Origin: a virus
Length of the DNA: 56,130 bases
IMG/VR virus record: IMGVR_UViG_3300019377_000001
Span: 1 to 56,130 of that record
Strand: one strand, 5' to 3'
How positions within the stretch are numbered: position 1 is the first letter of the stretch; the number at the start of each line of letters is the position of its first letter. Made by a program: the position numbers and the translations under genes. The notes under the pieces were generated by a model that was given only the letters and a program-made list of their open reading frames with translations, did no database searches and was not told the DNA's origin. Below are positions 13,994 through 36,930 of this stretch, piece by piece.

Positions 13994-13994
13994 G

Positions 13995-19616: not shown

Positions 19617-19982
19617 ATGCTCTACGACATTACGGCCGTAGCGACGTGCATAGTCGCGCTGGTCTTCATCCTGTGGGACGGCCACATCAGCAAGATCGAG
19701 TCCTACATCCTGGCGGTCTGCTGCCTGATCCTCGGCGCAACGTCCTGGGTCGTGAACTTCCTGCAGGGGACCGTGTTCGCCCAGGACTGGAACGCGTACG
19801 TCGTCGCCGGTGTGCTCGGCGCCCTGGTGATCTGGCGCGGTCCCGCCGGCAAGGTCAAGGGGTTCATCCTCATGGCCTGCGCCCTGGTCCTCGGCTCGAC
19901 GGCCCTCGTCACGGGCATCCTGCCCCCGCTGGTCAACGGCATCTTCACCGCGATCGGCGTGTTCTTCACCGAGGGCCTCTGA
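19617..19982 (+). CDS. Integral membrane protein (about 4 TM)
   Basis: I trimmed the ORF to the ATG at 19617, after a GAGAGGTGGA SD. It is hydrophobic throughout. Confidence 0.7.
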   Translation: MLYDITAVATCIVALVFILWDGHISKIESYILAVCCLILGATSWVVNFLQGTVFAQDWNAYVVAGVLGALVIWRGPAGKVKGFILMACALVLGSTALVTGILPPLVNGIFTAIGVFFTEGL

Positions 19983-20006
19983 CGCCCCAGCATCACCCGC
20001 GAAGAC

Positions 20007-20062
20007 CAGAGCCCCGGACGGGGCGTGTACCCGGCAGGTGGCACGCAACGTCCGGGGCTCTG
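20007..20062 (+). promoter_or_regulatory. Long stem-loop between the membrane-protein gene and the translocase gene (attenuator or terminator candidate)
   Basis: Perfect 14-bp stem CAGAGCCCCGGACG / CGTCCGGGGCTCTG closing a 28-nt loop. Confidence 0.45.
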
Positions 20063-20118
20063 CCCCTTCGGAAAGAGACCACCACCCGCACGCACAGCGA
20101 GAAAGGAAAAGTCCCCAG

Positions 20119-22323
20119 ATGGCTAACGATGAGGTGCCGAACGACGGCACGCAAGATGGGGCCGAGACCACCGAGCGCGACGAGCTGCTGCAGATCGCGG
20201 ACGCGCTCGCAGAGGCCCAGGGCGACCTGTACATGGGGCCCGACGGGTCGATTTCCGCCGTGGACGCGATCGGCACCGAGCACATCGGCACGCTCACCGA
20301 CGCGGGCACCTGGGAGTGGGAGGACGCCTGCCCCGACGACGACACCACGGCCACCGGCAGCGAGCTCGTCGTCACGCAGGCGGTGCCCGACACGGACACC
20401 ACCCCCACGGGCACGCTGGAGCCCCGTGCACGCGTGATCCCGCCGTGGGTGGCCGACCGTCGGGTACTTCTCCCCTGGGTCGGTTCACGGGCCGTAGACG
20501 GCCTCGCGACCGCGACGTTCCACGTCGTGCGATCCCCCTGGTACACCCTCCGCGGCCTGGCCGGCGTCGTGCGCGGCACCGGCCGCTGGATCGCGCAGCA
20601 CGACGACGACGAGCAGCACAAGGCCGACCTCGCCGCGGCCGGGTCCGTCCGCGGCCGTTCCCGCCTGCGCGCGGCCCGCACCCGCGGCCGTGCCGTACGG
20701 CTCGGCGCGGCCATCGTGCCCGCCGGCGCCGTAGCTGCCTGGATCGAGTGGGGGCAGTGGGGCCTGGTCCCCGCCGTCGCGTGCTCGAGCGCGTACCTCG
20801 CCCTCGCGATCGCCGGGTGGCGTGCCGCCCGCGCCCGCACCCCGCGCGAGGCCGCGGCACAGCGTCGCAAGCTCCCCGCGCTGTCGCGTCCGTTCGTGAC
20901 CGAGGCGCTCGCCATCGTCGGGTGCGGTCCGGTGCAGCTCCCGTCCGGGGCGATGGCCGGCCCCGTGATCGTGTCGTCGTCCCCGACGCGTGGTGGTGAC
21001 GTGATGGTGGTGGACCTCCCGCCAGGCGCCGTCGTGTCGCGGCTGCTGAAGAAGCACGAGGAGTTTGCGCAGGCGCTCGGCCGGCCGGCGGAGTGCGTCG
21101 TGATCGAGCCCCTCCCCCGGGTGTCGCCGGGCCGGTTCGAGCTGTTCGTCGCGGCCAAGCGCCTGGACGAGAAGGGCGCGCCGGAGTGGGCCTGGGCCGG
21201 CGGGAAGGCGCGGTCGTTCTTCGACGGCGTGCCCGTCGGGTACGACGCGCGCGGCCGTGAGGTGGTGGTGCCGCTGTTCGAGGCGAACGGCCTCATCGCC
21301 GGCGCGTCCGGCATGGGCAAGTCGTACACGGCGCGGCTGCTGCTGATGGGCGCAGCGCTCGACCCGGGCGTGACGATCCTGATCCACAACCTCAAGGGAG
21401 GCCCGGACTACAAGGCGTTCGGACCCGTAGCTCACACGCTGCGGGCCGGGGCGTCGCCGGCCGACCTCGAGCAGCTCGTCGCGGACCTCGCGTGGATGCA
21501 GTCGGAGATCGGGCGTCGCGCGGCCGTGCTCGAGCGGCTGCCCGCGTCCGAGGTGCCGGAGGCGAAGCTGACGCCCACGGTCGCCGCGAGCGCCGGCATG
21601 GCGCCGGTGGTGCTGCTGGTGGACGAGGCGCAGCGGGCGTTCACGTCGCGGGAGGGGAAGCGGATCGCGGCGATGCTGGAGGACGTGGTTCGCACGGGCC
21701 GCGCCGTCGGGATGCACGTGCACCTGGTGACGCAGGGCACGAAGGAGGGCGCGATCCCGTCGGGCATCCTGGACCAGCTCGTGCACCGTGTGGGGCACGG
21801 CGTGACGACTATCTCGGACGCGAACCTGATCCTCGGGTCGGACGCGCACGGGCGTACGTACCGCGCGGTGGACATCGATACCCCGGGCATCGCGTACGTC
21901 GGTACGGCGGGCGGTCACATGGTGAAGGCGGCCATGGCGAAGGTGGACCTGCCCGACGTCGAGCGGGTCGTAGCTCGTGCGCTCGGGCTGCGGACGACGG
22001 CCGGCACCCTGTCGGGGATGGCGGCGGGCGAGCAGGACGCGGACACGAACGACGGCGGCCCGTCGTCGTTCCTGGCCGACGTGCTCGAGGTGTGGCCGGC
22101 GGTCGGCGGGTCGCCGCGGCGGAACGCGAGCTCGAAGGAGCTCGCGGAGCTGCTCGTGATGGCGGACCCCGCGGAGTACGACGGCCTGCAGGGCGACGAG
22201 GTGTCGCGGCGGATGTCGGACGCCGGCGTGAAGGTGTCCACGCAGCGGCTCCCTGACGGCAACGCACGGGGCGTGAAGCGGTCGGACGTCGTCCAGGCCG
22301 CCCGGGGCCTGGACGGGGCCTAG
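20119..22323 (+). CDS. FtsK/SpoIIIE-family dsDNA translocase, TraB-like
   Basis: Walker A GASGMGKS, Walker B VVLLVDEAQ, two N-terminal hydrophobic helices and a C-terminal winged-helix-like tail. The ATG at 20119 follows GAAAGGAAAA. Confidence 0.8.
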   Translation: MANDEVPNDGTQDGAETTERDELLQIADALAEAQGDLYMGPDGSISAVDAIGTEHIGTLTDAGTWEWEDACPDDDTTATGSELVVTQAVPDTDTTPTGTLEPRARVIPPWVADRRVLLPWVGSRAVDGLATATFHVVRSPWYTLRGLAGVVRGTGRWIAQHDDDEQHKADLAAAGSVRGRSRLRAARTRGRAVRLGAAIVPAGAVAAWIEWGQWGLVPAVACSSAYLALAIAGWRAARARTPREAAAQRRKLPALSRPFVTEALAIVGCGPVQLPSGAMAGPVIVSSSPTRGGDVMVVDLPPGAVVSRLLKKHEEFAQALGRPAECVVIEPLPRVSPGRFELFVAAKRLDEKGAPEWAWAGGKARSFFDGVPVGYDARGREVVVPLFEANGLIAGASGMGKSYTARLLLMGAALDPGVTILIHNLKGGPDYKAFGPVAHTLRAGASPADLEQLVADLAWMQSEIGRRAAVLERLPASEVPEAKLTPTVAASAGMAPVVLLVDEAQRAFTSREGKRIAAMLEDVVRTGRAVGMHVHLVTQGTKEGAIPSGILDQLVHRVGHGVTTISDANLILGSDAHGRTYRAVDIDTPGIAYVGTAGGHMVKAAMAKVDLPDVERVVARALGLRTTAGTLSGMAAGEQDADTNDGGPSSFLADVLEVWPAVGGSPRRNASSKELAELLVMADPAEYDGLQGDEVSRRMSDAGVKVSTQRLPDGNARGVKRSDVVQAARGLDGA

Positions 22324-23785: not shown

Positions 23786-23805
23786 GGTGTCTCCCGTGGG
23801 ACTGG

Positions 23806-23865: not shown

Positions 23866-23867
23866 GC

Positions 23868-23900
23868 GGGCCCCGATTCCGGATTCCGGAATCGGGGCCC
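23868..23900 (-). terminator. Hairpin terminator
   Basis: Perfect 15-bp stem GGGCCCCGATTCCGG / CCGGAATCGGGGCCC. Confidence 0.55.
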
Positions 23901-23908
23901 GTAGCTCG

Positions 23909-24049
23909 TCAGGGCTGGCTGGCGACTAGGAGGCCGAGCAGCACCAGCACGACGAGCGCGATCGTGAGGCCGGCGCGGAACGACTTCGCCCGCTTGAACA
24001 GGATCATGGCGCCAGCGATGACGGCGATGAACACGAAGAGCTCGTTCAC
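23909..24049 (-). CDS. Small membrane protein (46 aa)
   Basis: The GTG at 24049 overlaps the upstream TGA. VNELFVFIAVIAGAMILF...LTIALVVLVLLGLLVA. Confidence 0.5.
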   Translation of the reverse strand: MNELFVFIAVIAGAMILFKRAKSFRAGLTIALVVLVLLGLLVASQP

Positions 24050-24534
24050 GAGGCGCCCACCAGGGAAGCGAGGATCGTCGTGGCGGCCTTGCGGCGCCGG
24101 TAGGTGTCTACGGCCACCAGGGCGGCGTCGTGGTCGTCCAGGTGCTCGTCCCACACGGCCTGCTCGTCGGCGGGCCAGTCGCGCACGTACTGCGACGCGC
24201 GGACGTCGGGGATCAGCAGCGTGAGCTTCTCGACGTCGAGGCCGGCCAGGATCGCGCTGAACGCCATCCACATCGTGGAGACCGACGCGGCGTCGGGCGT
24301 GAAGTGGCTGCAGTCGCAGTCGGGCTGCCCGACGTACGACATGCACCGGACCTCGTCGGTGCCGGAGTGGCGGGTGTGGCCGTGGGTGCACACGCACGTG
24401 AGCGGGGACGGGTACCCGTCGACGCGGCACACGACGCCGGCCTCGTCGTCGCCGTCGAGCAGGAACTGCTCACGCAGGGCTTCGAGCCGTTCGGTCAGCT
24501 CGTCGGTGGTGGTGCTGGTGGTGGTGTCGCTCAT
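24046..24534 (-). CDS. Hypothetical Cys/His-rich protein
   Basis: 162-aa ORF (MSDTTTSTTTDELTERLEAL...CVCTHGHTRH...CDCSHF). Confidence 0.7.
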   Translation of the reverse strand: MSDTTTSTTTDELTERLEALREQFLLDGDDEAGVVCRVDGYPSPLTCVCTHGHTRHSGTDEVRCMSYVGQPDCDCSHFTPDAASVSTMWMAFSAILAGLDVEKLTLLIPDVRASQYVRDWPADEQAVWDEHLDDHDAALVAVDTYRRRKAATTILASLVGAS

Positions 24535-24559
24535 CGTTCCTCCGTGGTGCTGGTGGTGG

Positions 24560-24721
24560 TCAGGGAAGGGTTCGTGCGAGCAGGTAAAGACCGAGTATCG
24601 CCAGGATCAGGTAGCCGCTGCGCGGCGTGCGCGCCGACCACCAGGCGATCTGGTGGCACACAGCGATCAGGCCGTACAGCACGGCGAACAGCGCCAGGCC
24701 GACGGACAGCGGCTCGATCAC
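24560..24721 (-). CDS. Small membrane protein
   Basis: I trimmed the ORF to the GTG at 24721 (GTGA overlap). VIEPLSVGLALFAVLYGLIAV... Confidence 0.45.
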   Translation of the reverse strand: MIEPLSVGLALFAVLYGLIAVCHQIAWWSARTPRSGYLILAILGLYLLARTLP

Positions 24722-24843
24722 CGGTCCGGGCCCCAGGTGCGGCCACAGGTGCACTGCCACCGCCAGGGGAGGTCGGTGGGGGTGGTCACGACGGCGCGGT
24801 ACGGCTGGATGAGGTGGCCGCGGAGCCGGTGCCACCAGATCAC
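24718..24843 (-). CDS. Hypothetical small protein (41 aa)
   Basis: I trimmed the ORF to the GTG at 24843 (GTGA overlap). VIWWHRLRGHLIQPY...CTCGRTW. Confidence 0.4.
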   Translation of the reverse strand: MIWWHRLRGHLIQPYRAVVTTPTDLPWRWQCTCGRTWGPDR

Positions 24844-25133
24844 TTGAGCCTCCGGAGTGCTTCGACCACGGCCTCCAGCAGCTCGTACTGCTCCTGGTCG
24901 GTGGTGCCGGTTTCCTGCTGGGCGGTGGTGGTCACGGGCGTGTGCCTCTCTCGTGTGGTGGTGGTCGTGGGTAGAGCCTGCAGTAGCTGGGCGGCGGCCA
25001 CCTGGTCGATCTCCAGGTGGAAGTCGTCCGAGCCGGGGTGTCGGTTCGTCCAGAGGCGCCCTTCGGGCGCGTGCGCGGCGAGCGCGTTGCGGAGCAAGAT
25101 CGCGGCCTCGTGGCTGGCCTGCACGCGGAACAT
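24840..25133 (-). CDS. Hypothetical protein
   Basis: The ATG at 25133 follows GGAGGCCCGC. An upstream extension (IDYNDPQLRERLEAR) is possible from a non-canonical start. Confidence 0.5.
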   Translation of the reverse strand: MFRVQASHEAAILLRNALAAHAPEGRLWTNRHPGSDDFHLEIDQVAAAQLLQALPTTTTTRERHTPVTTTAQQETGTTDQEQYELLEAVVEALRRLK

Positions 25134-25214
25134 GCGGGCCTCCAGGCGTTCGCGTAGCTGCGGGTCGTTGTAGTCGATGCGTCCTCCCGTGGTGGGTCCT
25201 GCCGTGCACCCCCG

Positions 25215-25243
25215 CCCGGGAACCGCGGTGTGCGGGTCCCGGG
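25215..25243 (-). terminator. Hairpin after gene 25256..25702
   Basis: CCCGGGA...TCCCGGG outer stem with an inner CCGC/GCGG stem. Confidence 0.4.
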
Positions 25244-25255
25244 CCGGTGAACGCG

Positions 25256-25702
25256 TCAGGCGCGGTAGTACGCACGGATCAGGTCGAACATCTCGGCGGG
25301 GGACGCCGGGCCGACGTGCTCCTCGTCGGGGTCGTCGCTCTCGATGTAGACGCCGACCTCGGCGGTGGCGGCGAAGAAGAACAGGCCGATCTGGTCGACG
25401 CCGTCCTGGTGGAGGAACACGCCGCGGGTGCCGCGGTTGCCGAGGGTGTACTCCTCGATGTGGACGTCGGCGGGCACCAGGCGCTCGATGACACCGGCGG
25501 CGACGATGCCGCGCTCGATGCCGGATGCGAGCGCCGGGTCGTTGAGGACGGCGAGGGCGTCGGGGGAGGGGACCTGGAGGCCGAGCAGGTCGGCCAGGTG
25601 GTCGCCGTCGCGCACGGTGGTGAAGTCGTCCGACGCCTCGAGCGCGAGGATCAGGTCGATGTCGGTGGTGGCCGGGGCGGTGGTGGTCGTGGTGGTGGTC
25701 AC
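25256..25702 (-). CDS. Hypothetical protein
   Basis: I trimmed the ORF to the GTG at 25702, after GGGAGCCACC. 148 aa. It is the first gene behind cassette C. Confidence 0.65.
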   Translation of the reverse strand: MTTTTTTTAPATTDIDLILALEASDDFTTVRDGDHLADLLGLQVPSPDALAVLNDPALASGIERGIVAAGVIERLVPADVHIEEYTLGNRGTRGVFLHQDGVDQIGLFFFAATAEVGVYIESDDPDEEHVGPASPAEMFDLIRAYYRA

Positions 25703-25724
25703 GGTGGCTCCCTGGGGGCTGCGG

Positions 25725-25785
25725 GTCGGGACGTTTTCCCTGACCTCGTGACACGAATCTACCACACGCATGTGGGGGGTACAAA
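25725..25785 (-). promoter_or_regulatory. Conserved promoter-operator-leader cassette, copy C
   Basis: The -10 is TAGATT. Variant palindrome CCACATGCGTGTGG (sense strand) at 25762-25775. Bulged hairpin at 25725-25744. Confidence 0.55.
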
Positions 25786-25841
25786 CGTGCGCGTGGCGCC
25801 CGCGGAGGTTCCGCGGACGCCACGCGCTGGGGCGGTGCTGG

Positions 25842-26507
25842 TCAGGGGTGCAGGGCGGCGAACCTGTTCCGTAGCTCGAGCGCGTGCCGCATGACCTGGT
25901 CCGGGTCGCCAGCCCGGAAGTCGCTGAGGCGCTCGACCTCCACGGACAGGGCCTGGAAGATCCGGGCGACGTCGGTCGGGGTCAACTCGACGCTGACGTT
26001 CGCCTCGGGGCGGCGAAGGTCCGCGACCTCGGCCGTGTGGAACATCTCCCCCACGCGCAGGACGGCGACGCCGGGCTCCATCAGGTGCTGGTAGCGGGCG
26101 ACGCCGGGCACCAGGCCGCCGCGGGTACGGGGGCCGACGTACTCCACGACCTCGCCGTGCCGGTAGGGGTGGGTGACCGGGTGGAGGGGCTCGTGGCGGC
26201 CGACGACGGCGGCGGGCTCGGGCGCGGGGTCGGTTCCCGGCTCGATGAGGCGGACGCGGATCACGACGGGCGAACCGGTGGACGGCGCGAACCGCCACAT
26301 GCCGCCGTTCACGTCGTCGCCGCTGCCGGTCGTGCGGACCACGGCCCACTCGGTGCGGGTCATGGTGGCCTGGGCGGCGTACTCGGCCGCCTGGCGGGCC
26401 GTGCTGGTCTCGTAGCGGCGGACGGGGGCTCCCTCGATGGGCATTCCCTCCCAGTCCACGGCAACGGTCTCGTAGTAGCTCTTGGCGGCCGGGGCGGTGG
26501 TGTTCAC
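25842..26507 (-). CDS. Hypothetical protein (single-gene unit)
   Basis: I trimmed the ORF to the GTG at 26507, after AAGGAGACACC. 221 aa. Confidence 0.65.
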   Translation of the reverse strand: MNTTAPAAKSYYETVAVDWEGMPIEGAPVRRYETSTARQAAEYAAQATMTRTEWAVVRTTGSGDDVNGGMWRFAPSTGSPVVIRVRLIEPGTDPAPEPAAVVGRHEPLHPVTHPYRHGEVVEYVGPRTRGGLVPGVARYQHLMEPGVAVLRVGEMFHTAEVADLRRPEANVSVELTPTDVARIFQALSVEVERLSDFRAGDPDQVMRHALELRNRFAALHP

Positions 26508-26527
26508 GGTGTCTCCTTCGGGTGCGG

Positions 26528-26588
26528 GTCGGGGCGTTTCCCCTGACCTCGTGTTACTACAGTACCACATGCATGTGGGGCGAGTGGA
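26528..26588 (-). promoter_or_regulatory. Conserved promoter-operator-leader cassette, copy D
   Basis: Sense strand reads TCCACT-18 nt-TACTGT. Palindrome at 26565-26578. Bulged hairpin at 26528-26547. Confidence 0.6.
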
Positions 26589-26593
26589 GCGGG

Positions 26594-26619
26594 GCCCGGC
26601 CCCGGGGTGGGGGCCGGGC
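26594..26619 (-). terminator. Hairpin terminator
   Basis: 10-bp stem GCCCGGCCCC / GGGGCCGGGC. Confidence 0.5.
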
Positions 26620-26627
26620 CGGGCGGG

Positions 26628-27047
26628 TCACTTCGCGACGCGGATGTTCCGGCCGACGTTGAGGGTGAACACCTGGGTCACGCCGTCGGAGTCGCGCGTG
26701 AACGCGGTGCGGCGGGTCGGGTCGAGGCGCAGGGTGCGCGGGTCCACGCGGGTGCTGACCGACGTGACGCGGAACCGGCGGCCGTCCTTGTTCACCAGGA
26801 CGTGCCCGGGGCGGACGAGCTCGGCCTTGACGGTCGTCACGTCGCGCTCGGTCGGGGCGGGCTTCGGGGCGTCCGTCGCGTCGGGGAGGTAGACGTTGAA
26901 CGCCTTCACCTTGCGGGCGCGGCCGTTCGCCTTCACGGTCGCCGTGCCGTCGTCGTTGAGGCGGACGAACACGCCGGGGCGCTTGCCGGTGGTGCTGTTG
27001 ACCAGGACGGCGGTACCGGCGGGGGTGGTGGCGGTGGCGTTCTGCAT
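26628..27047 (-). CDS. Hypothetical basic protein (single-gene unit)
   Basis: 139-aa ORF with its ATG after GGGAGTCACC. Confidence 0.7.
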   Translation of the reverse strand: MQNATATTPAGTAVLVNSTTGKRPGVFVRLNDDGTATVKANGRARKVKAFNVYLPDATDAPKPAPTERDVTTVKAELVRPGHVLVNKDGRRFRVTSVSTRVDPRTLRLDPTRRTAFTRDSDGVTQVFTLNVGRNIRVAK

Positions 27048-27068
27048 GGTGACTCCCGTGGTGACTGG

Positions 27069-27129
27069 GTCGGGACTCGTTCCCTGACCTCGTGACAGAA
27101 CAGTACCACATGCATGTGGGGTCTGTGGA
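27069..27129 (-). promoter_or_regulatory. Conserved promoter-operator-leader cassette, copy E
   Basis: Sense strand reads TCCACA-18 nt-TACTGT. Palindrome at 27106-27119. Bulged hairpin GTCAGGGA-ACGAG-TCCCGAC at 27069-27088. Confidence 0.6.
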
Positions 27130-27137
27130 GCGAGGAA

Positions 27138-27162
27138 CGCCCCGCCCGGGGTGGGCGGGGCG
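27138..27162 (-). terminator. Hairpin terminator
   Basis: 9-10-bp stem GCCCCGCCC / GGGCGGGGC. Confidence 0.5.
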
Positions 27163-27173
27163 CTCGGTGGTTG

Positions 27174-27461
27174 TCAGTCCTGGTCGTCGTTGTCGTCCTG
27201 GCGCCAGGTGCCGACGCGAACGTACGTGTCGGTGATCGGGTCGTACGCCTTCACGGTGCCGCTGTCGGCCACGGACGCCCGCAGGGGCTCGCTGCCGTCG
27301 GTCTCACCGGCCAGGGCCCGGGTGACCAGGGCGCGGACGCCCTCGACGCCCCAGGCGTCCACGTGCGACTCGGCGCCGTCGAGCAGCTCCTTGACGAACA
27401 CGACCGCGGCGCGGTCCGTGGCCTTGGCCGGGGTGACCTTGATGCTCGTGTGCGGGGCCAT
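27174..27461 (-). CDS. Hypothetical acidic protein (single-gene unit)
   Basis: I trimmed the ORF to the ATG at 27461, after GGGAAAGCCACC. 95 aa. Confidence 0.65.
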   Translation of the reverse strand: MAPHTSIKVTPAKATDRAAVVFVKELLDGAESHVDAWGVEGVRALVTRALAGETDGSEPLRASVADSGTVKAYDPITDTYVRVGTWRQDDNDDQD

Positions 27462-27482
27462 GGTGGCTTTCCCTTCGTCGTG

Positions 27483-27533
27483 GCCGGGACTGGTTCCCTG
27501 GCCGAACAAGAGAACAGTACCACATGCATGTGG
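27483..27533 (-). promoter_or_regulatory. Conserved promoter-operator-leader cassette, copy F
   Basis: The -10 is TACTGT. The palindrome at 27520-27533 abuts the stop codon of the exonuclease gene. Bulged hairpin at 27483-27502. Confidence 0.55.
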
Positions 27534-27535
27534 GG

Positions 27536-28123
27536 TCAGGCGAGCGAGTCGAGGTACTGCGCCATGACGCGGTTGTACCGGGCGTCCTCCAGGGCGTTGT
27601 GCTCGGTGCCCTCCTGGGCCGGCATCTCGGGGTTGCCTAGCCGGTACGACTCCTGGCGCAGGTCGTTCGTCCACATCGGCACGCCGTCGGGCAGGTCGAT
27701 CATCGGGCCCCAGAGCTGCGCGAGGGCCACGTGGTCGTACGCGCCGTACCAGGCCCACAGCTCGAGGTTCCCCTGCCCCGTGTGCGCCGCGGCCCACAGG
27801 AAGTCGCGGACCTCGTTCGCGATCGACCGGTGAGGCTTCACGGCCGTGCGCGCAGGGTCGAGCTGGATGCTCGCGAGCGCCGTTCGGGTCGCGTTCGTCT
27901 GGCTGTTCAGGTAGCTCTCCAGGGCCGGCTGTGACTCAGGCGTGAGGGGCAGGTGCGGGACGACGTTCCGAACGAGCCAGTCGTGCCGCAGGATGCGGTC
28001 CCACGGGCAGTCGCTGTTGACGGCGTAGTACGCCTGTCCGTCGTCGGTGACGAGCCCGATGGAGATCAGCTCGATGGTCTTCCCGTCCTCGAGGAATTCG
28101 GTGTCATAGAACACGCGTGTCAT
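27536..28123 (-). CDS. DEDDh 3'-5' exonuclease (Rv2179c/RNase T-like)
   Basis: YDTEFLEDG... (Exo I), ...WAWYGAYDHV... (Exo II), ...HNALEDAR (Exo III, DEDDh). Confidence 0.7.
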   Translation of the reverse strand: MTRVFYDTEFLEDGKTIELISIGLVTDDGQAYYAVNSDCPWDRILRHDWLVRNVVPHLPLTPESQPALESYLNSQTNATRTALASIQLDPARTAVKPHRSIANEVRDFLWAAAHTGQGNLELWAWYGAYDHVALAQLWGPMIDLPDGVPMWTNDLRQESYRLGNPEMPAQEGTEHNALEDARYNRVMAQYLDSLA

Positions 28124-28162
28124 GGGTCCTCCTGGTGGTGGTGTTCGGGTGGTCCATCATCG

Positions 28163-29110
28163 CTACGGCAGGTCCAGAACGCCCTGCTGGAGCCGGGTGC
28201 GCAGCGACAGGTCGAGGTACTCCTGCTTGAGCTCGATGCCGACGTACCGCCGGCCGTGGCGGGTCGCGGCGAGGCCGGTGGTGCCGGAGCCGCTGAACGG
28301 GTCCAGGACGACGTCGCCGGCGGCGGAGCCGGCCTGGATGCACCGCTCGGGTAGCTCGAGCGGGAACGTCGCGAAGTGGGACCCGGGGAACGGCGTTGTC
28401 GGGATGGCCCACACGTCGCCGGGGTTGCGTCCGCCGGGGTGCAGCGCGCGGGTGGCGTAGCCGCCCTTGCTGGGGTGGTCGTCGCGGTACCCGGAGCGGC
28501 CCTCGTGGCGGGCGCCGCGGGTGTCCTGCGGTTCGCGGATCGCGTCGAGGTCGAACTCGTAGCTCGCGCTCTTGGTGAGCAGGAACAGGTGCTCGTGGCG
28601 GCCGGAGAGCCGGTCGGTCACGGACTCGGGCATGGCGTTGGTCTTGTGCCAGATGATCTCGTTGCGCAGGATCCAGCCGTCGTCCTGCAGGGCGAACGCG
28701 ACCCGCCATGGGATGCCGAGGAGGTTCTTCTCGGGGCGGTCGAAGTCGCGCCGGCGCATCGCGGCCCGTTGCATCTTCTGCACGCGGCCCGGGTTGCTGA
28801 GCCGGGACTTGTCCCAGCCGTTGTCGCTGCCGCGCTGCTTGGTGCTGTAGCTGTCTCCGAGGTTGAGCCAGAGGGTGCCGTCGTCGGCCAGCACGCGGTG
28901 CACCTCGCGGATCACGTCCACGAGGCCGGCGACGAACGCGGCCGGGGAGTCCTCGGAGCCGAGTTGTCCGTCCACGCCGTAGTCGCGGAGCCCGTAGTAC
29001 GGCGGGGAGGTGACGACGCACTGGACGCTGGCGGGCTCGAGCTGGGCCAGGACCGTGGCGGCGTCGCCGTGGTGGAGGGTGATGTGGTCGTCGGCGTAGT
29101 AGGGGGTCAC
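28163..29110 (-). CDS. DNA methyltransferase, SPPY type (N4-cytosine or N6-adenine, beta class)
   Basis: VVTSPPYYGLRDY catalytic motif and C-terminal VLDPFSGSGTTG SAM motif. GTG start at 29110. Confidence 0.8.
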   Translation of the reverse strand: MTPYYADDHITLHHGDAATVLAQLEPASVQCVVTSPPYYGLRDYGVDGQLGSEDSPAAFVAGLVDVIREVHRVLADDGTLWLNLGDSYSTKQRGSDNGWDKSRLSNPGRVQKMQRAAMRRRDFDRPEKNLLGIPWRVAFALQDDGWILRNEIIWHKTNAMPESVTDRLSGRHEHLFLLTKSASYEFDLDAIREPQDTRGARHEGRSGYRDDHPSKGGYATRALHPGGRNPGDVWAIPTTPFPGSHFATFPLELPERCIQAGSAAGDVVLDPFSGSGTTGLAATRHGRRYVGIELKQEYLDLSLRTRLQQGVLDLP

Positions 29111-29150
29111 GGGTCGCTCCAGGGGGTGTGCGTCGGGGGTGATGCGAGCA

Positions 29151-29196
29151 CTGATACGGCCCGCTGTAGCAGCAGTGCATCAGCGGGCCGTATCAG
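29151..29196. promoter_or_regulatory. Perfect 16-bp stem-loop in the leader of the methylase gene
   Basis: CTGATACGGCCCGCTG / CAGCGGGCCGTATCAG with a 14-nt loop. Further GATAC/GTATC copies and the direct repeat GGGCTCACGGGG (29217-29230 and 29255-29266) lie nearby. Confidence 0.45.
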
Positions 29197-29317
29197 CGTC
29201 GCAGCCGCGGGATACCGGGGCTCACGGGGGTGTATCAGGGGCCCGGGGCCCGGAGGGCTCACGGGGCGCGCAGGGGGCGTTGTGGGGGTGTGGGTGGGGG
29301 TCGGTGATACGCCGGTC

Positions 29318-29343
29318 GGCGCGGCCCCCGTGGGGGCCGCGCC
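29318..29343 (-). terminator. Hairpin after gene 29351..29566
   Basis: 11-bp stem GGCGCGGCCCC / GGGGCCGCGCC. Confidence 0.55.
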
Positions 29344-29350
29344 GTCGGTG

Positions 29351-29566
29351 TCAGAGCCGCTTGGCCGCCGCGAGGCAGTGGCGGCACACGGTGTAGCGGT
29401 GGGACTTGGCGTGCTCGGTGGCGTTGAGGATCGCGTCGTGGACGTTCACGTACTCCCCCACGACCCGCATCCGGTCCCCCTTGGCGACGAGGTCCGCGCA
29501 GGGGCTCTGCGCGGCCGTCGTGCCGGTGATGTGGACCTTGGTTCCGTCGGCCTTGACCTCGAACAT
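29351..29566 (-). CDS. Hypothetical protein
   Basis: I trimmed the ORF to the ATG at 29566, after AAGGAGGCACCAC. 71 aa with C-terminal CRHC. Confidence 0.6.
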   Translation of the reverse strand: MFEVKADGTKVHITGTTAAQSPCADLVAKGDRMRVVGEYVNVHDAILNATEHAKSHRYTVCRHCLAAAKRL

Positions 29567-29587
29567 GTGGTGCCTCCTTGGCTCCGG

Positions 29588-29638
29588 GTCGGGACGGTTT
29601 CCCTGACCTCGTACCCCCAGGGTACCACATGCATGTTG
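29588..29638 (-). promoter_or_regulatory. Conserved promoter-operator-leader cassette, copy G
   Basis: The -10 is TACCCT. Variant palindrome CAACATGCATGTGG (sense strand) at 29625-29638. Bulged hairpin at 29588-29607. Confidence 0.5.
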
Positions 29639-29640
29639 GG

Positions 29641-29835
29641 TCATCCGTACGCCTTGCCGCTCTCGCGCACGACGTCGCCCGCGAACTGCGAGATCTCGCC
29701 CTCGTCGCTCGTGGTGAGCATGCCGGTCTGCAAACCGTCGGCGTTGCACACCACGAGGTGCAGCACGCCGTCGCGGTGCACGACATGCACCGTGCACGGT
29801 GCACCGCTGTTGCCGTTCGTCCAGTTCGTGGCCAT
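29641..29835 (-). CDS. Hypothetical protein
   Basis: 64-aa ORF (MATNWTNGNSGAPCTVHVVHRDG...). Confidence 0.6.
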   Translation of the reverse strand: MATNWTNGNSGAPCTVHVVHRDGVLHLVVCNADGLQTGMLTTSDEGEISQFAGDVVRESGKAYG

Positions 29836-29866
29836 GGTCGGTCCCCTTCGGTCGGTGGTGTGCAGG

Positions 29867-31072
29867 TCACGCCATGGCGGCCAGGACGGCGTCCCGGTCG
29901 TTGTACGCGGTGCGCAGCTTCACGTCGTGCCCGGCGGCGAGGAGCGCTTTGTGCACGGCGTCGCCGGTTGCAGTCCGGTTGCTCTGCAGGAAGGCCCGCA
30001 CGACATCGCGGCGCTCCGCGATGCTCGCGCGCTGTGCAGGTGCAATGTGCACGTGCGGGCGGGGCAGGTCTGCAACGATCGCGGCGGCCTCACGCTGCAC
30101 AGCCTCTGCAACCCGGGCGGCGTACGCCTCGTCCTGCACAACGTCGGGCTGTGCAGGCGGGGCCTGCACCGTTGCAACCTGGGTTGCATGTGCAACGGCC
30201 TGCACGCCGTCGTGCACGTGCACCTCGGGTGCAGGTGCAACCGGCTGCACACTGGTCTGCACGTGCACCTCGGGTGCAGGTGCAACGGGTGCTGCAAGTG
30301 CAGGTGCAGGTGCACCGGTGGTGAGGTCGGCCTGCATCCGCTGTGCAGTCCGTGCAGCGATCGTCGCGACGGACACCCGGACCTCCTCGCCGTAGCGGGC
30401 TGACTCGAGCCAGGCGCCGAGCTGGGCGTCGCGCTCGTCCTGGGGGACGTGCTTCGCGATCGCTCGGGCGGCCCGTCGTGCCCGCTGTGCGGCCAGCGGG
30501 GCGAGCCAGGTGCCGTTCGCCAGGCCCTCGGCCTCGCCCGCCTTGAAGAACGCGTACAGGAGGCCGTGACGGCGCTCCGCGGCACGGTGGGCGCGGTGCC
30601 GCCCGCCGCAGAACAGGTGGATCACCAGCTCCCACAGCCCGGCGGCGAGGAACGGGGCGAACAGGCGCCACCCGGCGGACGCCAGGGCGGCCGACAGGCT
30701 GAGGTCCCCGGACAGGTACTCCATGACCTCGAACAGGGCGCCGAACACGCCGGAGACGCCCGACAGGACCCAGGTCGCGGTGCGGAACAGGGCGGTCGGC
30801 TGCATGCGGTACGCCTCGATGAACGTCGCCGCGGCGACGACGGCGAGCGAGAGCTCGATGACGCCGCCGAACACGTAGCTCGTCACCTCGGAGAGCTGCA
30901 TGACGTTGCGGGCGAACGCGACGCCGCCGATGTACGCGGCGCCGTTCGCGACGACGGCGACGAGCAGCACGGCCGCGGTCAGGGCGATCAGGAGCCGGCG
31001 GATCACGGGCGGCTCGGGGTCGGTGGCGAGATGTGCAGGTGCAACGGGCGTGGTGGTGTGGTCGGTGTGCAC
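29867..31072 (-). CDS. Multi-pass membrane protein, DUF2637-like (as in actinomycete conjugative elements), with a repetitive Ala/Pro/Val/His/Gln C-terminal half
   Basis: 401 aa with a GTG start. About 4 N-terminal TM helices, then ...VAPAPEVHVQTSVQP VAPAPEVHVHDGVQA... encoded by the TGCA array. Confidence 0.75.
   Translation of the reverse strand: MHTDHTTTPVAPAHLATDPEPPVIRRLLIALTAAVLLVAVVANGAAYIGGVAFARNVMQLSEVTSYVFGGVIELSLAVVAAATFIEAYRMQPTALFRTATWVLSGVSGVFGALFEVMEYLSGDLSLSAALASAGWRLFAPFLAAGLWELVIHLFCGGRHRAHRAAERRHGLLYAFFKAGEAEGLANGTWLAPLAAQRARRAARAIAKHVPQDERDAQLGAWLESARYGEEVRVSVATIAARTAQRMQADLTTGAPAPALAAPVAPAPEVHVQTSVQPVAPAPEVHVHDGVQAVAHATQVATVQAPPAQPDVVQDEAYAARVAEAVQREAAAIVADLPRPHVHIAPAQRASIAERRDVVRAFLQSNRTATGDAVHKALLAAGHDVKLRTAYNDRDAVLAAMA
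29941..30370 (+). repeat. TGCA-hexamer array 1 (inside the 3' half of gene 29867..31072)
   Basis: I counted about 32 TGCA in about 420 nt by hand. GTGCAGGTGCA(A/G/C) occurs at 30034, 30229, 30274, 30298 and 30304. A 29-bp perfect direct repeat lies at 30213-30241 and 30258-30286. Confidence 0.85.
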
Positions 31073-31095
31073 GGGCTGTCCTCTCTGTGCAGGCG

Positions 31096-31156
31096 GTCGG
31101 GACTCGTTCCCTGACCTGGTGTGTGCACGCTACCACATGCATGTGGGGGTTGTGCA
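31096..31156 (-). promoter_or_regulatory. Conserved promoter-operator-leader cassette, copy H
   Basis: Sense strand reads TGCACA-18 nt-TAGCGT. Palindrome at 31133-31146. Bulged hairpin at 31096-31115. Confidence 0.55.
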
Positions 31157-31272
31157 GGGGGTGTGCAACGGCGTGTTACGGATGCACGTCTGCGACCTGC
31201 ACTTTTGCACTTGCAACTCGGGGTGCACGTGCAGGTGCACGACGGCGTGCACCCGGCGGGTTGCATGCAAGA

Positions 31273-31303
31273 GGGCCCGCTGCACGTGATGTGCAACGGG
31301 CCC
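31273..31303 (-). terminator. Hairpin after gene 31327..31569
   Basis: GGGCCCG / CGGGCCC stem followed on the sense strand by TCTTGC. Confidence 0.4.
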
Positions 31304-31326
31304 CTGGTTCTGCAGCTATGCGTGCA

Positions 31327-31569
31327 TCACGTCTCGGTGACCACGTAGACGTCAGGCCGGGCAGTGAGCACCTCGGCCTGGTGGCGGGCGAGCCGTTCGT
31401 AGATCGTCGGGTCGAGCTCCCCCAGGAAGGCGCCGCAGCCGCACGACGTGCCTCCGTTGTAGCCGGCCTGGGGCGGGTCGCTGTCCACGGGCAGGAGCTG
31501 CTCGTGATGCACGAGCAGCCGCGCCATGGCGTCGATGTTCAGGACGGGCAGCGGCTTCTCGGTCGTCAT
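31327..31569 (-). CDS. Hypothetical protein
   Basis: 80-aa ORF with an ATGA overlap with the lipoprotein gene. Confidence 0.65.
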   Translation of the reverse strand: MTTEKPLPVLNIDAMARLLVHHEQLLPVDSDPPQAGYNGGTSCGCGAFLGELDPTIYERLARHQAEVLTARPDVYVVTET

Positions 31570-32249: not shown

Positions 32250-32597
32250 TCAGTGGTGGCGCTGCTCGCGGATGCGGGCCTTCTTGCCGCGTAGCTCGCG
32301 CAGGTAGTAGAGCTTCGCGCGGCGCACGACGCCGCGGCGCACGACCTCGATGGACTCGATCGACGGCGTGTGGAGCGGGAACTTCCGCTCGACGCCGGCG
32401 CCGAAGCTGATCTTGCGGACGGTGAACGTCTCACCGACGCCGCGGCCGTGCCGCGCGATGACGACGCCCTGGAACGCCTGGACGCGGGTCCGTTCGCCCT
32501 CGGTGACCTTGACGTTCACGCGGACCGTGTCGCCGGCCCGGAAGTCGGGGATGTCGGTGCGCATCGAGTCGGTGTCGATGGTGTCGAGCTTCTGCAT
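32250..32597 (-). CDS. rplS: Ribosomal protein bL19 homologue
   Basis: Full-length match to the L19 pattern: ...[18 protein letters not shown].+.[10 protein letters not shown]....[35 protein letters not shown]. Confidence 0.85.
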
Positions 32598-35340: not shown

Positions 35341-35502
35341 TCAGGATGCCTCGTCCTCGCGTGCCGCGACGGCGAGCTGCCGGGCGGCGTCGTCCCAGCG
35401 GAGGTTCTGCGCCCGGGCGTGGTCGGACACGAGCGCGACGATCTCATCCCAGCCCATGGGCGCGAGCTCGCGGCGCAGCGTGGTGAAGGTCCCGGGGTTC
35501 AC
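35341..35502 (-). CDS. Hypothetical small protein (53 aa)
   Basis: The GTG at 35502 overlaps the TGA of the initiator gene. Confidence 0.45.
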   Translation of the reverse strand: MNPGTFTTLRRELAPMGWDEIVALVSDHARAQNLRWDDAARQLAVAAREDEAS

Positions 35503-36734
35503 AGGGCACCGTCCTGGGTAGCGCGCGTGGCGGCGACGTCGAGCACGGTGCCGATCGTCGTCGTGCGGCGGCCGGCACCGGCAGGCAGCGAGCGCCGGAC
35601 GGCGAGGACAGCCTCGCGGCCGGCGCCCGGCGAGCGGTCCACGGAGGACGCGGTGATCGCGATCTCCTTGGCGGCGCCGGTGCCTGACGGCGTGGTGTCG
35701 AGGTTCGGGTTGCACGCGGGGCAGCGGCGGACGTACTCGCGGCCCTCGTGGTCGTTCGCGACGGCGAGCCGAGTGTCCCGGTCGCACCCGCCGCACCACC
35801 GCGGGGTGGTGCGGCCCGGGGGAGGCCCGGGGATGGCCTGGCCGAACGTCTCGGCGGTGCGCCACTGGGCGATCCGCTCGGACAGCCGGGAGCCGGTGTG
35901 GAGCGTGAGGATCAGGCCGTCGGGGTTCGTAGCTCCGGTGGCGTCCACGAGCCAGGTGCGGAACCGTGCGGCCTCGTCGCGGTTGAGCATCATCGCCTCC
36001 AGGACCTGGTCGGGGGTGGCGCGCGTAGCGTCGCCACGAGCACCGGGATCCGCCGTCGTTGCAGCAGCGTCGCGCGCATCACCTGAGGTGATGCTGCTGC
36101 TGGAAGTCTCCACGGGGGATGCAGTAGCCGCGCTACGCGCGGCACTGCGGGGAGGGTCATGGGGAGGGTTACTGGGGAGGGTTGGGTGACTTGTAGTCAC
36201 CTCGTGCGGTGACTCGTAGTCACCCCGGCCCTGACTCGTAGTCAGCCCGTCGTCGTCCGCGGGGTGACTCGTAGTCACCCCGTCGGCGCGCGGACGCTTC
36301 ACGCCCTTGTCGACGCGCTGGTTCTTCTCGGGGGCGGGGGTGTGCTCGGGGCGGTCCTGCGGAGTCAGCGGGGGCCGGCCACGGCCGGCACGCCACACGT
36401 TGACCGACAGCTCGACGTCGTCGCCGTTGTAGCTCTTCTCGGGACGGAAGAACGAGTACGGCACCTGCAGGTCGTACACGACGGGGCGGCGGTCGACGGG
36501 GATCATCCGTGCCGAGGTCTGGTCGCCGCGGCGAAGGAGGCCGCGCTCCTCGAGCGTGGCGATCCGGCGCTGGACGGTGCGCTCGGCAAGGCGGGTGCGC
36601 TGCGAGATGGTCGTGACGCTGAGGAACGAGTTGGTCCCGTCCTGGTCGGCGGCCTCGGCCATCGCGACCAGCACGGCCCACTCGTTGACGTCCGCGACGG
36701 GGGCCGACTTCACGGCCCAGAGGATCTGCTCCAC
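35499..36734 (-). CDS. Winged-helix replication-initiator-like protein (lambda O analogue) carrying its own iterons
   Basis: N-terminal wHTH (FLSVTTISQRTRLAERTVQRRIATLEERGLL). The repeated peptide GVTTSHP/GLTTSQ/EVTTSHP is encoded by the iterons. C-terminal CGGC...CPAC. Confidence 0.6.
   Translation of the reverse strand: MEQILWAVKSAPVADVNEWAVLVAMAEAADQDGTNSFLSVTTISQRTRLAERTVQRRIATLEERGLLRRGDQTSARMIPVDRRPVVYDLQVPYSFFRPEKSYNGDDVELSVNVWRAGRGRPPLTPQDRPEHTPAPEKNQRVDKGVKRPRADGVTTSHPADDDGLTTSQGRGDYESPHEVTTSHPTLPSNPPHDPPRSAARSAATASPVETSSSSITSGDARDAAATTADPGARGDATRATPDQVLEAMMLNRDEAARFRTWLVDATGATNPDGLILTLHTGSRLSERIAQWRTAETFGQAIPGPPPGRTTPRWCGGCDRDTRLAVANDHEGREYVRRCPACNPNLDTTPSGTGAAKEIAITASSVDRSPGAGREAVLAVRRSLPAGAGRRTTTIGTVLDVAATRATQDGAL
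36149..36278. repeat. Origin-like repeat block: 3 x GGGGAGGGT plus 4 x inverted-repeat iterons GTGACT-CGT-AGTCAC
   Basis: 9-mers at 36149, 36161 and 36174. Iterons at 36186-36200, 36209-36223, 36231-36245 (CTGACT..AGTCAG) and 36264-36278. Iteron spacing is 23, 22 and 33 bp. Confidence 0.6.
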
Positions 36735-36930
36735 TGCGGGATGCTCCCTTGTTCGGGGAGTGACGTTGCCCGCGTTGTCCGGTATAGTGGTACCCGGAGT
36801 TTCGCGAGTGGTCTGGTCACTCGTGAGGCTGAGGCCGTCCCTCTGCCAGGAGGGGCGGCCTCACTTGTGTGTGGGAACCATACCTCTGCATGTACCGGTT
36901 GACGAGCAAGGCCGGGTGTGGCGCGTCCAG

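What the first reader, a model, noticed from the sequence alone, without database searches (positions are those of the whole stretch)
31021..31330. Second TGCA array spanning the 5' end of the same gene, its promoter cassette and a 180-nt non-coding spacer
I counted about 22 TGCA in about 310 nt against an expectation of about one. About 16 of them lie in the non-coding stretch 31147-31326, between a terminator hairpin (31273-31303) and cassette H.

The same oriented 12-mer recurs here: GTGCAGGTGCAA at 31033 and GTGCAGGTGCAC at 31229. Other members are GTGCAC, TTGCAA, ATGCAT and CTGCAG, so the common core is NTGCAN.

Because this block is largely intergenic, the motif cannot be a by-product of a peptide repeat. 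Arrays 1 and 2 bracket the transmembrane part of the DUF2637-like gene at a distance of about 650 nt. The 14-bp operator palindrome of the ten promoter cassettes has the same ATGCAT centre, so one protein might read both.
Basis: partly seen in the sequence, partly recalled or inferred. Interest (0 to 1): 0.72.

Follow-up and report, generated by a model that had tools for sequence, protein, structure and literature searches.

The report
Conserved TGCA site array in phage
A family of uncultivated actinobacterial phages keeps two dense clusters of the four-letter DNA word TGCA around one gene for a membrane-anchored DNA-binding protein, even against normal codon usage, so the clusters look like a docking site for a protein, possibly one that ties the phage genome to the membrane.

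Summary
There are exactly 22 TGCA in 31021-31330 and 16 in the non-coding stretch 31147-31326. Markov simulations of the window never gave more than 7 in any 310 nt. The array is conserved: 16 other contigs encoding relatives of this membrane protein (down to 36% protein identity) have 3-8 TGCA per 100 bp upstream of the homologous gene, against 0.3-0.9 in their flanks. A second array lies in the linker-coding part of the gene.

Selection acts on the DNA. In the coding array TGCA is 4-5 times commoner than the protein sequence and codon usage predict, and it is built from rare NNT-GCA codons. Sites sit mainly in a 6-bp register, have degenerate and roughly strand-symmetric flanks, and occur in both arms of a covarying terminator hairpin.

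The window is a complete 56-kb siphovirus genome. Its lambda-type origin lies elsewhere (36184-36283). The gene encodes four transmembrane helices, a disordered linker and a C-terminal helix-turn-helix domain of Fur/ArgR type.

I read the arrays as a cis-acting protein-binding locus, most likely read by that domain. The binder and its role are inferred. The suggested link to the 14-bp promoter palindrome is not supported.

The parts
31147..31326 (.). Intergenic TGCA array: 16 TGCA in 180 nt, lying upstream of the promoter of the membrane-HTH gene
   Evidence: Conserved in relatives. Adjacent spacing of 6 nt is the commonest.
31021..31146 (-). Promoter cassette, 5' UTR and first codons of the gene, carrying 6 further TGCA. 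These include the -10 flank (TAGCGTGCA), the site before the ribosome-binding site (TGCACAGAGAGGA) and the start codon (GTGCAC).
   Evidence: These TGCA are invariant or nearly so in alignment A2. The other cassettes I read lack the extra TGCA.
31273..31303 (-). Terminator-type RNA hairpin of the upstream gene, GGGCCCGUUGCAC-AUCAC-GUGCAGCGGGCCC, with TGCA in both arms
   Evidence: Predicted fold. The variable stem pair covaries as U-A, U-G or C-G on the sense strand among relatives.
31133..31146 (.). 14-bp palindrome CCACATGCATGTGG of the promoter cassette. The -10 hexamer TAGCGT lies at 31132-31127 on the minus strand.
   Evidence: The centre is TGCG in 4 of 10 relatives.
31095..31116 (-). 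Conserved bulged hairpin of the 5' UTR (GGTCAGGGAACGAGTCCCGACC on the minus strand). It belongs to every promoter cassette.
29867..31072 (-). Gene for a 401-aa protein: four transmembrane helices (residues 22-150), cytoplasmic helices to 252, disordered linker 254-313, C-terminal three-helix HTH domain 351-400
   Evidence: ORF. AlphaFold2 models. Family of 57-59 clusters.
30030..30360 (.). Partner array (array 1): 29 TGCA inside the linker-coding part of the gene, in frames 1 (GTG CAN) and 2 (NNT GCA) only
   Evidence: The 3' part of the gene has 32 TGCA against 7.2 +/- 1.7 expected from synonymous resampling.
29870..30022 (-). Codons for the C-terminal HTH domain (residues 351-401), the candidate reader of the arrays
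   Evidence: pLDDT about 94. Best Foldseek matches include the DNA-binding domains of Fur, Zur, ArgR/AhrC and FapR. Fur HTH at E = 0.3 by profile.
19831..22323 (+). FtsK/SpoIIIE-like ATPase gene; its product is the alternative candidate reader, with a winged-helix-looking C-terminus
   Evidence: Pfam and PHROG hits. Sequence read.

Best explanation
The block 31021-31330 is one half of a bipartite, cis-acting protein-binding locus. Each half is a dense array of NTGCAN sites, mostly 6 bp apart. One half covers the terminator-to-promoter spacer, the promoter and the first codons of gene 29867-31072(-). The other half is written into the DNA that encodes the protein's disordered linker.

Shown:
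- The arrays are real and specific to TGCA.
- They are unique in the genome and conserved across the phage family.
- They are maintained by selection on the DNA itself.
- They are tied to this gene and not to its neighbours.

Inferred:
- A helix-turn-helix protein binds the sites cooperatively.
- The most economical candidate is the C-terminal Fur/ArgR-like HTH domain of the gene's own membrane-anchored product, acting preferentially in cis as it is made.
- Binding would tether the phage genome to the membrane, possibly beside the phage's FtsK-like translocase.
- Because the array overlaps the promoter, binding would also feed back on the gene's own transcription.
For: 1. Enrichment: 22 TGCA in 310 nt against a simulated maximum of 7. 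TGCA is the top 4-mer.

2. Conservation: in 16 other contigs (L003-L007, L009-L019), at 36-81% protein identity, the 300 nt upstream hold 3.3-7.7 TGCA per 100 bp and the linker-coding part 2.3-7.3. The transmembrane-coding part holds 0.3-1.0 (2.9 in L014, whose called ORF runs up into the array) and the far flanks 0.27-0.9.

3. DNA-level selection: the 3' part of the gene has 32 TGCA against 7.2 +/- 1.7 from synonymous resampling (maximum 14 in 1000). The same holds in 11 relatives. GCA supplies 20 of 44 Ala codons there, against 4 of 45 in the transmembrane part and 39 of 771 in a set of the phage's genes.

4. Double-stranded DNA character: the core is palindromic, the flanks are roughly reverse-complement symmetric, and spacings peak at 6, 12, 18, 24 and 30 nt in non-coding DNA. 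Most intergenic sites lie between a terminator and the promoter.

5. Tie to the gene: the upstream and downstream neighbours differ among relatives, and only this gene is constant.

6. A reader is at hand: the C-terminal three-helix domain has pLDDT about 94, and its best structural matches include several DNA-binding HTH domains. Remote homologues carry Pfam HTH domains at the same position.

7. Covariation:
- The remote homologue L100, with an HTH_11-type C-terminus, has 17 of its 20 TGACA/TGTCA copies inside its own linker-coding and 3' DNA; TGACA occurs 9 times against 1.05 expected by resampling.
- The pXCEL01 homologue, with yet another C-terminus, has a weaker CGGACC cluster there.
- Within the family, the clade with a changed third, presumed recognition, helix (L005, L019) shifts from 6-nt to 4-nt spacing (TGCATGCA).

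8. The lambda-type origin is elsewhere.
Against: - No binding has been tested.
- Foldseek E-values for the small domain are not significant (0.8-5).
- The TGCA core stays the same while the presumed recognition helix changes (LRTAYNDR, ERTAYSD, ERTAANY, ERSTGNW). A conserved host factor would explain this as well or better.
- A 6-bp register is tighter than in known HTH arrays: 11 bp in stbS and 7-8 bp for omega and MetJ (my own knowledge).
- In the remote homologue L100 I saw the motif cluster only in the coding part, not upstream.
- In L019 and L003, further TGCA-rich patches occur at other gene ends and intergenic regions. This fits a general regulator.
- The covariation rests on only two remote loci, and one of the two signals is weak (z about 3.7).
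Confidence: 0.42

Rival explanations
1. A clt-like locus. The arrays are the recognition site of the phage's FtsK/TraB-like translocase (19831-22323), not of the membrane protein's own HTH. They would mark the phage genome for pumping by that motor, as the 8-bp repeats of clt do for TraB of Streptomyces plasmids.
For: - An FtsK/SpoIIIE-like ATPase is encoded 7.5 kb away, and also in relative L003. Its C-terminal 80 residues look to me like a winged helix (read, not tested).
- The only plasmid homologue found for the membrane protein (30% identity over 191 residues of the transmembrane region, E = 2e-16) lies next to an FtsK-annotated gene and an M23 peptidoglycan hydrolase on pXCEL01.
- TraB binds clt through direct 8-bp repeats, and SpdB2-like genes have been noted in actinophages (PMC4447253).
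Against: - The unit here is a 4-bp palindrome with degenerate flanks, not a defined 8-mer in direct repeat.
- The phage ATPase shows no significant similarity to the pXCEL01 FtsK beyond the P-loop region.
- The arrays follow the membrane gene, not the ATPase gene.
Confidence: 0.17
2. A purely transcriptional control region. The arrays are operators for some other phage or host regulator. It would coat the upstream spacer and the distant intragenic array, loop out or roadblock the DNA between them, and keep a potentially toxic membrane protein tightly controlled. No tethering role is involved.
For: - Array 2 overlaps the -10 flank, the 5' UTR and the start codon of only this one of the ten cassettes.
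- More distant relatives have extra TGCA patches at other intergenic regions.
- The TGCA core is invariant across diverged phages, as expected for a conserved host reader.
Against: - No candidate regulator was identified in the window.
- About 50 sites is far more than operators normally need.
- Remote homologues with a different HTH carry a different motif in the same place, which points to a reader that co-evolves with this gene.
Confidence: 0.2
3. A cluster of methylation sites. TGCA would be the target of a DNA methyltransferase, and the cluster would be read in its hemimethylated or unmethylated state, as with the GATC clusters of E. coli oriC or the phage P1 pac site.
For: A bare 4-bp palindrome with degenerate flanks, clustered about 20-fold, is the typical look of such clusters. 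The window encodes two N6/N4-type methyltransferases.
Against: The methyltransferases are not conserved with the arrays: L002 and L017 carry a C5-cytosine enzyme instead. TGCA is not depleted elsewhere in the genome, at about 200 outside the arrays against about 150-165 expected. No TGCA-specific enzyme is known to me in this host group.
Confidence: 0.08
4. An RNA-level or neutral origin. UGCA repeats would act in the mRNA (structure, RNA-binding protein, slow translation of rare codons), or the arrays would be drift products of replication slippage in low-complexity DNA.
For: The region folds better than shuffled controls (z = -3.9). The linker is hypervariable and carries tandem duplications. 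NNT-GCA codons are rare.
Against: - Most intergenic sites lie between a terminator and the promoter.
- The motif is palindromic with symmetric flanks.
- Slippage cannot keep one 4-mer in two separate arrays across lineages at 36% protein identity.
- Rare codons do not explain the non-coding array.
Confidence: 0.06

Closest known systems
stbS, the centromere-like site of plasmid R388, bound by the HTH protein StbA
   Same: Both have two sets of short repeats in the promoter region of the gene for an HTH protein. In R388 that protein represses its own operon and positions the DNA without a plasmid-encoded NTPase. The stbDR repeat (C/TTGCATCAT) even contains TGCA (bioRxiv 10.1101/2022.04.29.490116). 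The StbA DNA-binding domain is among the Foldseek matches.
   Different: stbS has ten defined 9-bp direct repeats on an 11-bp cycle. Here there are about 50 sites with only a 4-bp core, in a 6-bp register and with no orientation. One set lies inside a coding region. The protein is membrane-anchored. The StbA match is poor (rmsd 17.8 A). The element is a phage with no sign of plasmid maintenance.
[quoted passage not shown]
   Same: Actinobacterial setting. An FtsK-like translocase and a four-helix membrane protein of about 400 aa are encoded in the same element. A short repeated DNA word marks the DNA in cis. SpdB2 homologues in actinophages have been proposed to help spread phage DNA (PMC4447253). 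The plasmid homologue on pXCEL01 lies beside an FtsK-annotated gene.
   Different: TraB recognition sequences are specific 8-mers in direct repeat. SpdB2 binds DNA non-specifically and was not shown to be homologous to this protein. The phage ATPase is not closely related to the plasmid one.
Phage lambda ori inside gene O
   Same: A cis-acting array of protein-binding repeats is written into the DNA that encodes a flexible interdomain linker of the protein that binds it (my own knowledge for lambda). This same window has exactly that arrangement for its O-like gene: four dyad iterons at 36184-36283.
   Different: The TGCA arrays are not in the initiator gene, are not 18-22-bp dyad iterons, and number about 50 rather than four.
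Fur boxes read as arrays of NATWAT hexamers
   Same: A 6-bp register of short units in either orientation, along which a winged-helix protein can polymerise (my own knowledge). The best sequence and fold matches of the C-terminal domain are to the Fur and Zur HTH.
   Different: The protein has no Fur dimerisation or metal-binding domain. The matches are not statistically significant. The unit sequence differs.

Membership tests
Streptomyces-type clt (TraB recognition locus) | An FtsK/SpoIIIE-like translocase is encoded by the same element | tested here: met
   PF01580 at E = 2.2e-8 and phrog_1358 at E = 9e-22 for 19831-22323
Streptomyces-type clt (TraB recognition locus) | Direct repeats of a specific 8-bp sequence | tested here: not met
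   Only the 4-bp palindrome is constant. Flanks are degenerate and strand-symmetric.
Streptomyces-type clt (TraB recognition locus) | Bound by the translocase C-terminal winged helix and required in cis for transfer | not testable with these tools
   Needs binding and transfer assays
Plasmid centromere arrays (stbS, parC, tubC type) | Two sets of short repeats at the promoter of the gene for the binding protein | tested here: inconclusive
   There are two arrays and one covers the promoter, but the other lies inside the coding region about 660 nt away
Plasmid centromere arrays (stbS, parC, tubC type) | Defined repeat unit of 7-20 bp, usually phased with the helix | tested here: not met
   4-bp core. 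Spacings peak at 6, 12 and 18 nt.
Plasmid centromere arrays (stbS, parC, tubC type) | The element is maintained as an extrachromosomal replicon | tested here: inconclusive
   No integrase, partition ATPase or repressor was found among the ORFs scanned, and not every ORF was scanned. Lifestyle is unknown.
Lambda-type replication origin | Dyad iterons inside the initiator gene | tested here: not met
   Such iterons exist at 36184-36283 in the O-like gene, not in the TGCA arrays
Pfam DUF2637 (PF10935), for the gene that carries the arrays | Match to the family model above its gathering score | tested here: not met
   No hit for the window protein even at E <= 10. One of 31 members reaches E = 1.4e-3. 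The remote homologue P0087 scores 30.4 bits against a cut-off of 22.8, so the relationship is remote.
Methylation-site clusters (GATC/SeqA type) | A cognate methyltransferase is conserved with the cluster | tested here: not met
   N6/N4-type enzymes in the window and L018, C5-type in L002 and L017
Z-DNA-prone alternating purine-pyrimidine tracts | Continuous alternation across sites | tested here: not met
   The two bases between sites 6 nt apart are pyrimidine-purine in only 24 of 45 intergenic cases. Other alternating 4-mers are not enriched.

The most novel reading that the evidence does not exclude
The phage carries a plasmid-style DNA-spreading module: an FtsK/TraB-like pump, an SpdB2-like membrane protein with its own DNA-binding domain, and the TGCA arrays as the cis-acting handle. 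With it, the phage would move its double-stranded genome between hyphal compartments or neighbouring cells of a mycelial Micrococcales host without making virions. More generally, membrane-HTH proteins of this superfamily would write their own binding sites into the DNA that encodes their disordered linker.
Probability: 0.1. Interest if true: 0.9.

Novelty: new variant of a known kind. Interest (0 to 1): 0.62.

Why it matters
Most cis-acting sites in uncultivated phages are invisible. Here a bare tetranucleotide, held at about 20 times its background density in two places and against codon bias, marks one. It would also be a second example, after the lambda origin inside gene O, of a binding array hidden in linker-coding DNA. 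Two remote relatives, one of them on a plasmid, show motif clusters at the same place with different motifs. This suggests a general design rule that can be tested by genome surveys and simple binding assays. It also connects to the open question of what the FtsK-like and Spd-like genes found in actinophages are for.

Tried and rejected
- Replication origin: rejected. Four lambda-like dyad iterons lie inside the O-like initiator gene at 36184-36283. GC skew follows the direction of transcription and switches near 36-37 kb.
- Packaging site: unlikely. The terminase gene is about 20 kb away.
- Z-DNA or alternating purine-pyrimidine tracts: rejected.
- By-product of a peptide repeat: rejected by codon resampling.
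- Hidden small gene 31130-31285(-): rejected. Indels against close relatives are mostly 1-2 nt.
- Known RNA family or small RNA: no Rfam hit and no promoter-like site.
- Link to the neighbouring methyltransferase: rejected, because the enzyme type varies among relatives.
- Link to the 14-bp promoter palindrome: not supported.
- Cultured relatives: none in the phage collection by DNA or protein search. None in plasmids for the window protein.
- Fold search with the whole protein model was uninformative.
- Literature searches for TGCA arrays or DUF2637 in phages gave nothing relevant.
- Scans of viral contigs for three remote homologues found nothing.
Full report
**1. What the window is**

Bases 1-123 repeat exactly at 56008-56130. 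The window is therefore a complete genome of about 56,007 bp, with 70.5% G+C. It encodes:
- a large terminase, a portal, a major head protein, a head-tail adaptor, a major tail protein, a tape-measure protein and a lysin amidase;
- a replication initiator of the lambda O type at 35499-36860(-);
- an FtsK/SpoIIIE-like ATPase at 19831-22323(+);
- two N6/N4-type DNA methyltransferases;
- a ribosomal protein bL19.

It is a siphovirus genome, not a chromosome segment. No cultured phage resembles it by DNA or protein search. Its bL19 is closest to Promicromonospora (80%), followed by Xylanimonas, Cellulomonas and Isoptericola. The host is probably in the Micrococcales.

**2.

- TGCA occurs exactly 22 times in 31021-31330 and 16 times in 31147-31326.
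- The far-flank rate predicts about 1.3 in 310 nt.
- In 200 Markov simulations, the best 310-nt stretch held 4.9 on average and never more than 7.
- TGCA is the most enriched 4-mer of the block, 16 against 0.7 expected. Other alternating purine-pyrimidine 4-mers are not enriched.

**3. Anatomy on the coding (minus) strand**

From upstream to downstream:
1. The stop codon of the upstream 80-aa ORF at 31327.
2. Two TGCA.
3. A 13-bp-stem hairpin at 31303-31273 with TGCA in both arms.
4. A spacer of about 125 nt with 12 TGCA.
5. The 14-bp palindrome at 31146-31133.
6. A -10 hexamer TAGCGT, followed directly by GCA.
7. The bulged 5'-UTR hairpin that all the cassettes share.
8. TGCACAGAGAGGA, which contains the ribosome-binding site.
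9. The start codon within GTGCAC at 31072.

The variable stem pair of the hairpin appears as U-A, U-G or C-G among relatives. This pairs only on the sense strand, so it is an RNA terminator or stabiliser for the upstream gene. Most intergenic TGCA therefore lie in DNA between a terminator and a promoter.

**4. The array is conserved**

The membrane protein has 57-59 homologous clusters. All come from metagenomes, many on contigs of 52-56 kb. I read 16 other contigs, at 36-81% protein identity to the window protein. All 16 show the upstream pattern, and those that include the whole gene also show the linker-coding array.

| Region | TGCA per 100 bp |
|---|---|
| 300 nt upstream of the gene | 3.3-7.7 |
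| Linker-coding part of the gene | 2.3-7.3 |
| Transmembrane-coding part | 0.3-1.0 (2.9 in L014, whose called ORF runs up into the array) |
| Far flanks | 0.27-0.9 |

In an alignment of ten upstream regions, many TGCA are invariant while the bases around them vary. Arrays also grow by inserting TGCA-rich units, as in L014. The genes on either side differ among relatives, and only the membrane gene is constant.

**5. Selection is on the DNA**

Inside the gene, TGCA occurs only as GTG-CAN (Val-His, Val-Gln) or as NNT-GCA. NNT and GCA codons are rare in this genome: about 4% of codons end in T, and 39 of 771 Ala codons are GCA.
- Resampling synonymous codons gives 7.2 +/- 1.7 TGCA in the 3' part of the gene (maximum 14 in 1000). 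The observed number is 32.
- The same excess appears in all 11 relatives tested.
- GCA supplies 20 of 44 Ala codons in the 3' part and 4 of 45 in the transmembrane part.
- A motif-blind version of the test ranks TGCA first, with z about 12. It finds nothing comparable in the transmembrane part.

The linker peptide is hypervariable and predicted to be disordered. It is a tolerant carrier for a DNA signal.

**6. Geometry of the sites**

- The commonest spacing between adjacent sites is 6 nt, in both non-coding and coding arrays.
- All-pair distances in the non-coding arrays peak at 6, 12, 18, 24 and 30 nt.
- Flanking bases are degenerate and roughly symmetric between strands.

The unit is thus a hexamer NTGCAN without polarity. 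This fits recognition of double-stranded DNA. It does not fit an oriented motif.

**7. What it is not**

- Not the origin. Four dyad iterons GGGTGACTCGTAGTCACCC lie at 36184-36283 inside the O-like gene, exactly as in lambda.
- Probably not the packaging site; the terminase gene is far away.
- Not Z-DNA.
- Not a hidden gene; indels between close relatives are mostly 1-2 nt.
- Not a known RNA.
- Not tied to the methyltransferase, whose type changes among relatives.
- Not convincingly tied to the promoter palindrome. Its centre is TGCG or CGCA in three of the ten cassette-type palindromes in the window and ATGCGT in four of ten relatives.

**8. The gene product**

AlphaFold2 gives four transmembrane helices, a helical cytoplasmic part, a disordered stretch at 254-313 that coincides with array 1, and a confident three-helix domain at 351-400.
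- Its best structural matches include the DNA-binding domains of Fur, Zur, PerR, ArgR/AhrC, FapR and StbA. Typical rmsd is about 2 A over 40-50 residues, with probability up to 0.89.
- The E-values are not significant, as is usual for so small a domain.
- The best profile match in the PDB is the helix-turn-helix of Fur, at E = 0.3.
- A profile search of 1.8 billion representative proteins found 72 relatives. Five of the seven full-length remote relatives I scanned carry Pfam HTH domains at the same C-terminal position, and one passes the DUF2637 threshold.

The family is therefore a membrane-anchored HTH protein, remotely DUF2637-like.

**9. Covariation in remote relatives**

- In the metagenomic locus L100, the homologue ends in an HTH_11-type domain. 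Seventeen of the 20 TGACA/TGTCA copies in 6.1 kb lie in the linker-coding and 3' part of the gene. TGACA occurs 9 times against 1.05 expected from codon resampling.
- On plasmid pXCEL01 of Xylanimonas, the homologue lies beside an FtsK-annotated gene and an M23 peptidoglycan hydrolase. It shows a weaker cluster of CGGACC/GGTCCG in the same place.
- Within the phage family, the clade with a different third (presumed recognition) helix favours TGCATGCA (4-nt spacing) over the 6-nt register.

A motif that changes with the protein argues for a reader encoded by the element rather than by the host. However, this rests on only two remote loci.

**10. Interpretation**

I read the arrays as a bipartite cis-acting protein-binding locus that belongs to this gene. 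The likeliest reader is the gene's own C-terminal HTH. The FtsK-like protein and an unidentified regulator are the main alternatives.
- Binding would anchor the phage genome at the membrane.
- Because array 2 overlaps the promoter, binding would also regulate the gene.
- The closest known architectures are stbS/StbA of R388, which has two sets of five TGCA-containing repeats in the stbA promoter, and clt/TraB with SpdB2 in Streptomyces plasmids.
- Neither family's defining repeat structure is met here.

**11. Verdict**

The feature is real, conserved and under selection, and I found no description of it in the papers searched. Its mechanism is inferred, not shown. I rate it a new variant of a known kind, the repeat-array binding locus, with interest 0.62.

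Noticed in passing
window 36184-36283: Four dyad-symmetric iterons (GGGTGACTCGTAGTCACCC; spacings 23, 22 and 33 nt) lie inside the O-like replication initiator gene 35499-36860(-), downstream of its HTH domain. This is a lambda-style origin embedded in the initiator gene.
   Followed up: partly
window 32250-32597 (-): The phage encodes a full-length ribosomal protein bL19 (Pfam E = 1.9e-49). Its closest cellular match is Promicromonospora (80%), which suggests a Micrococcales host. Relative L018 has one too.
   Followed up: partly
window 23350-31148 (-) and 36942, 40272 (+): About ten promoter cassettes share the palindrome CCACATGCATGTGG, an extended -10, and a conserved bulged 5'-UTR hairpin GGTCAGGGAA-N3-4-TCCCGACC before the ribosome-binding site. 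Neither the regulator nor the role of the hairpin is known.
   Followed up: partly
window 1-123 and 56008-56130: An exact 123-bp terminal repeat. The contig is a complete circular or terminally redundant genome of about 56,007 bp.
   Followed up: no
L100 4600-5300: In a remote homologue of the membrane-HTH gene, 17 of the 20 TGACA/TGTCA copies in the locus lie in the linker-coding and 3' part of the gene, built from rare NNT-GAC codons. The design is the same as in the window but the motif differs.
   Followed up: partly
L101 (Xylanimonas plasmid pXCEL01, NC_013531.1) 4905-9639: The only plasmid homologue of the membrane protein lies next to an FtsK-annotated gene and an M23 peptidoglycan hydrolase. 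This looks like an actinomycete TraB-type transfer module. CGGACC/GGTCCG is mildly clustered at 5400-6700.
   Followed up: partly
window 4296-5270, 8654-9499, 13019-14233 (-): A family-4 glycosyltransferase, a polysaccharide pyruvyl transferase and a Stealth CR2 protein are encoded in and next to the structural gene block. They may glycosylate the virion or modify the host surface.
   Followed up: no
window 29641-29835 (-): A small conserved 64-aa ORF just downstream of the membrane gene is also TGCA-rich, in part through Cys and His codons (CTVHVVH...LHLVVCN). TGCA density stays raised down to about 29500. In relatives this downstream enrichment is variable.
   Followed up: partly
window 792-868 (-): A tRNA-Leu with anticodon AAG, which reads CUU/CUC. 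CUU is a rare codon in this high-GC genome.
   Followed up: no
L019 7200-7750 and L003 6500-6800: In the most distant relatives, further TGCA-rich patches lie at other gene ends and intergenic regions, around terminator-like hairpins. In those lineages the motif may have a wider regulatory use.
   Followed up: partly
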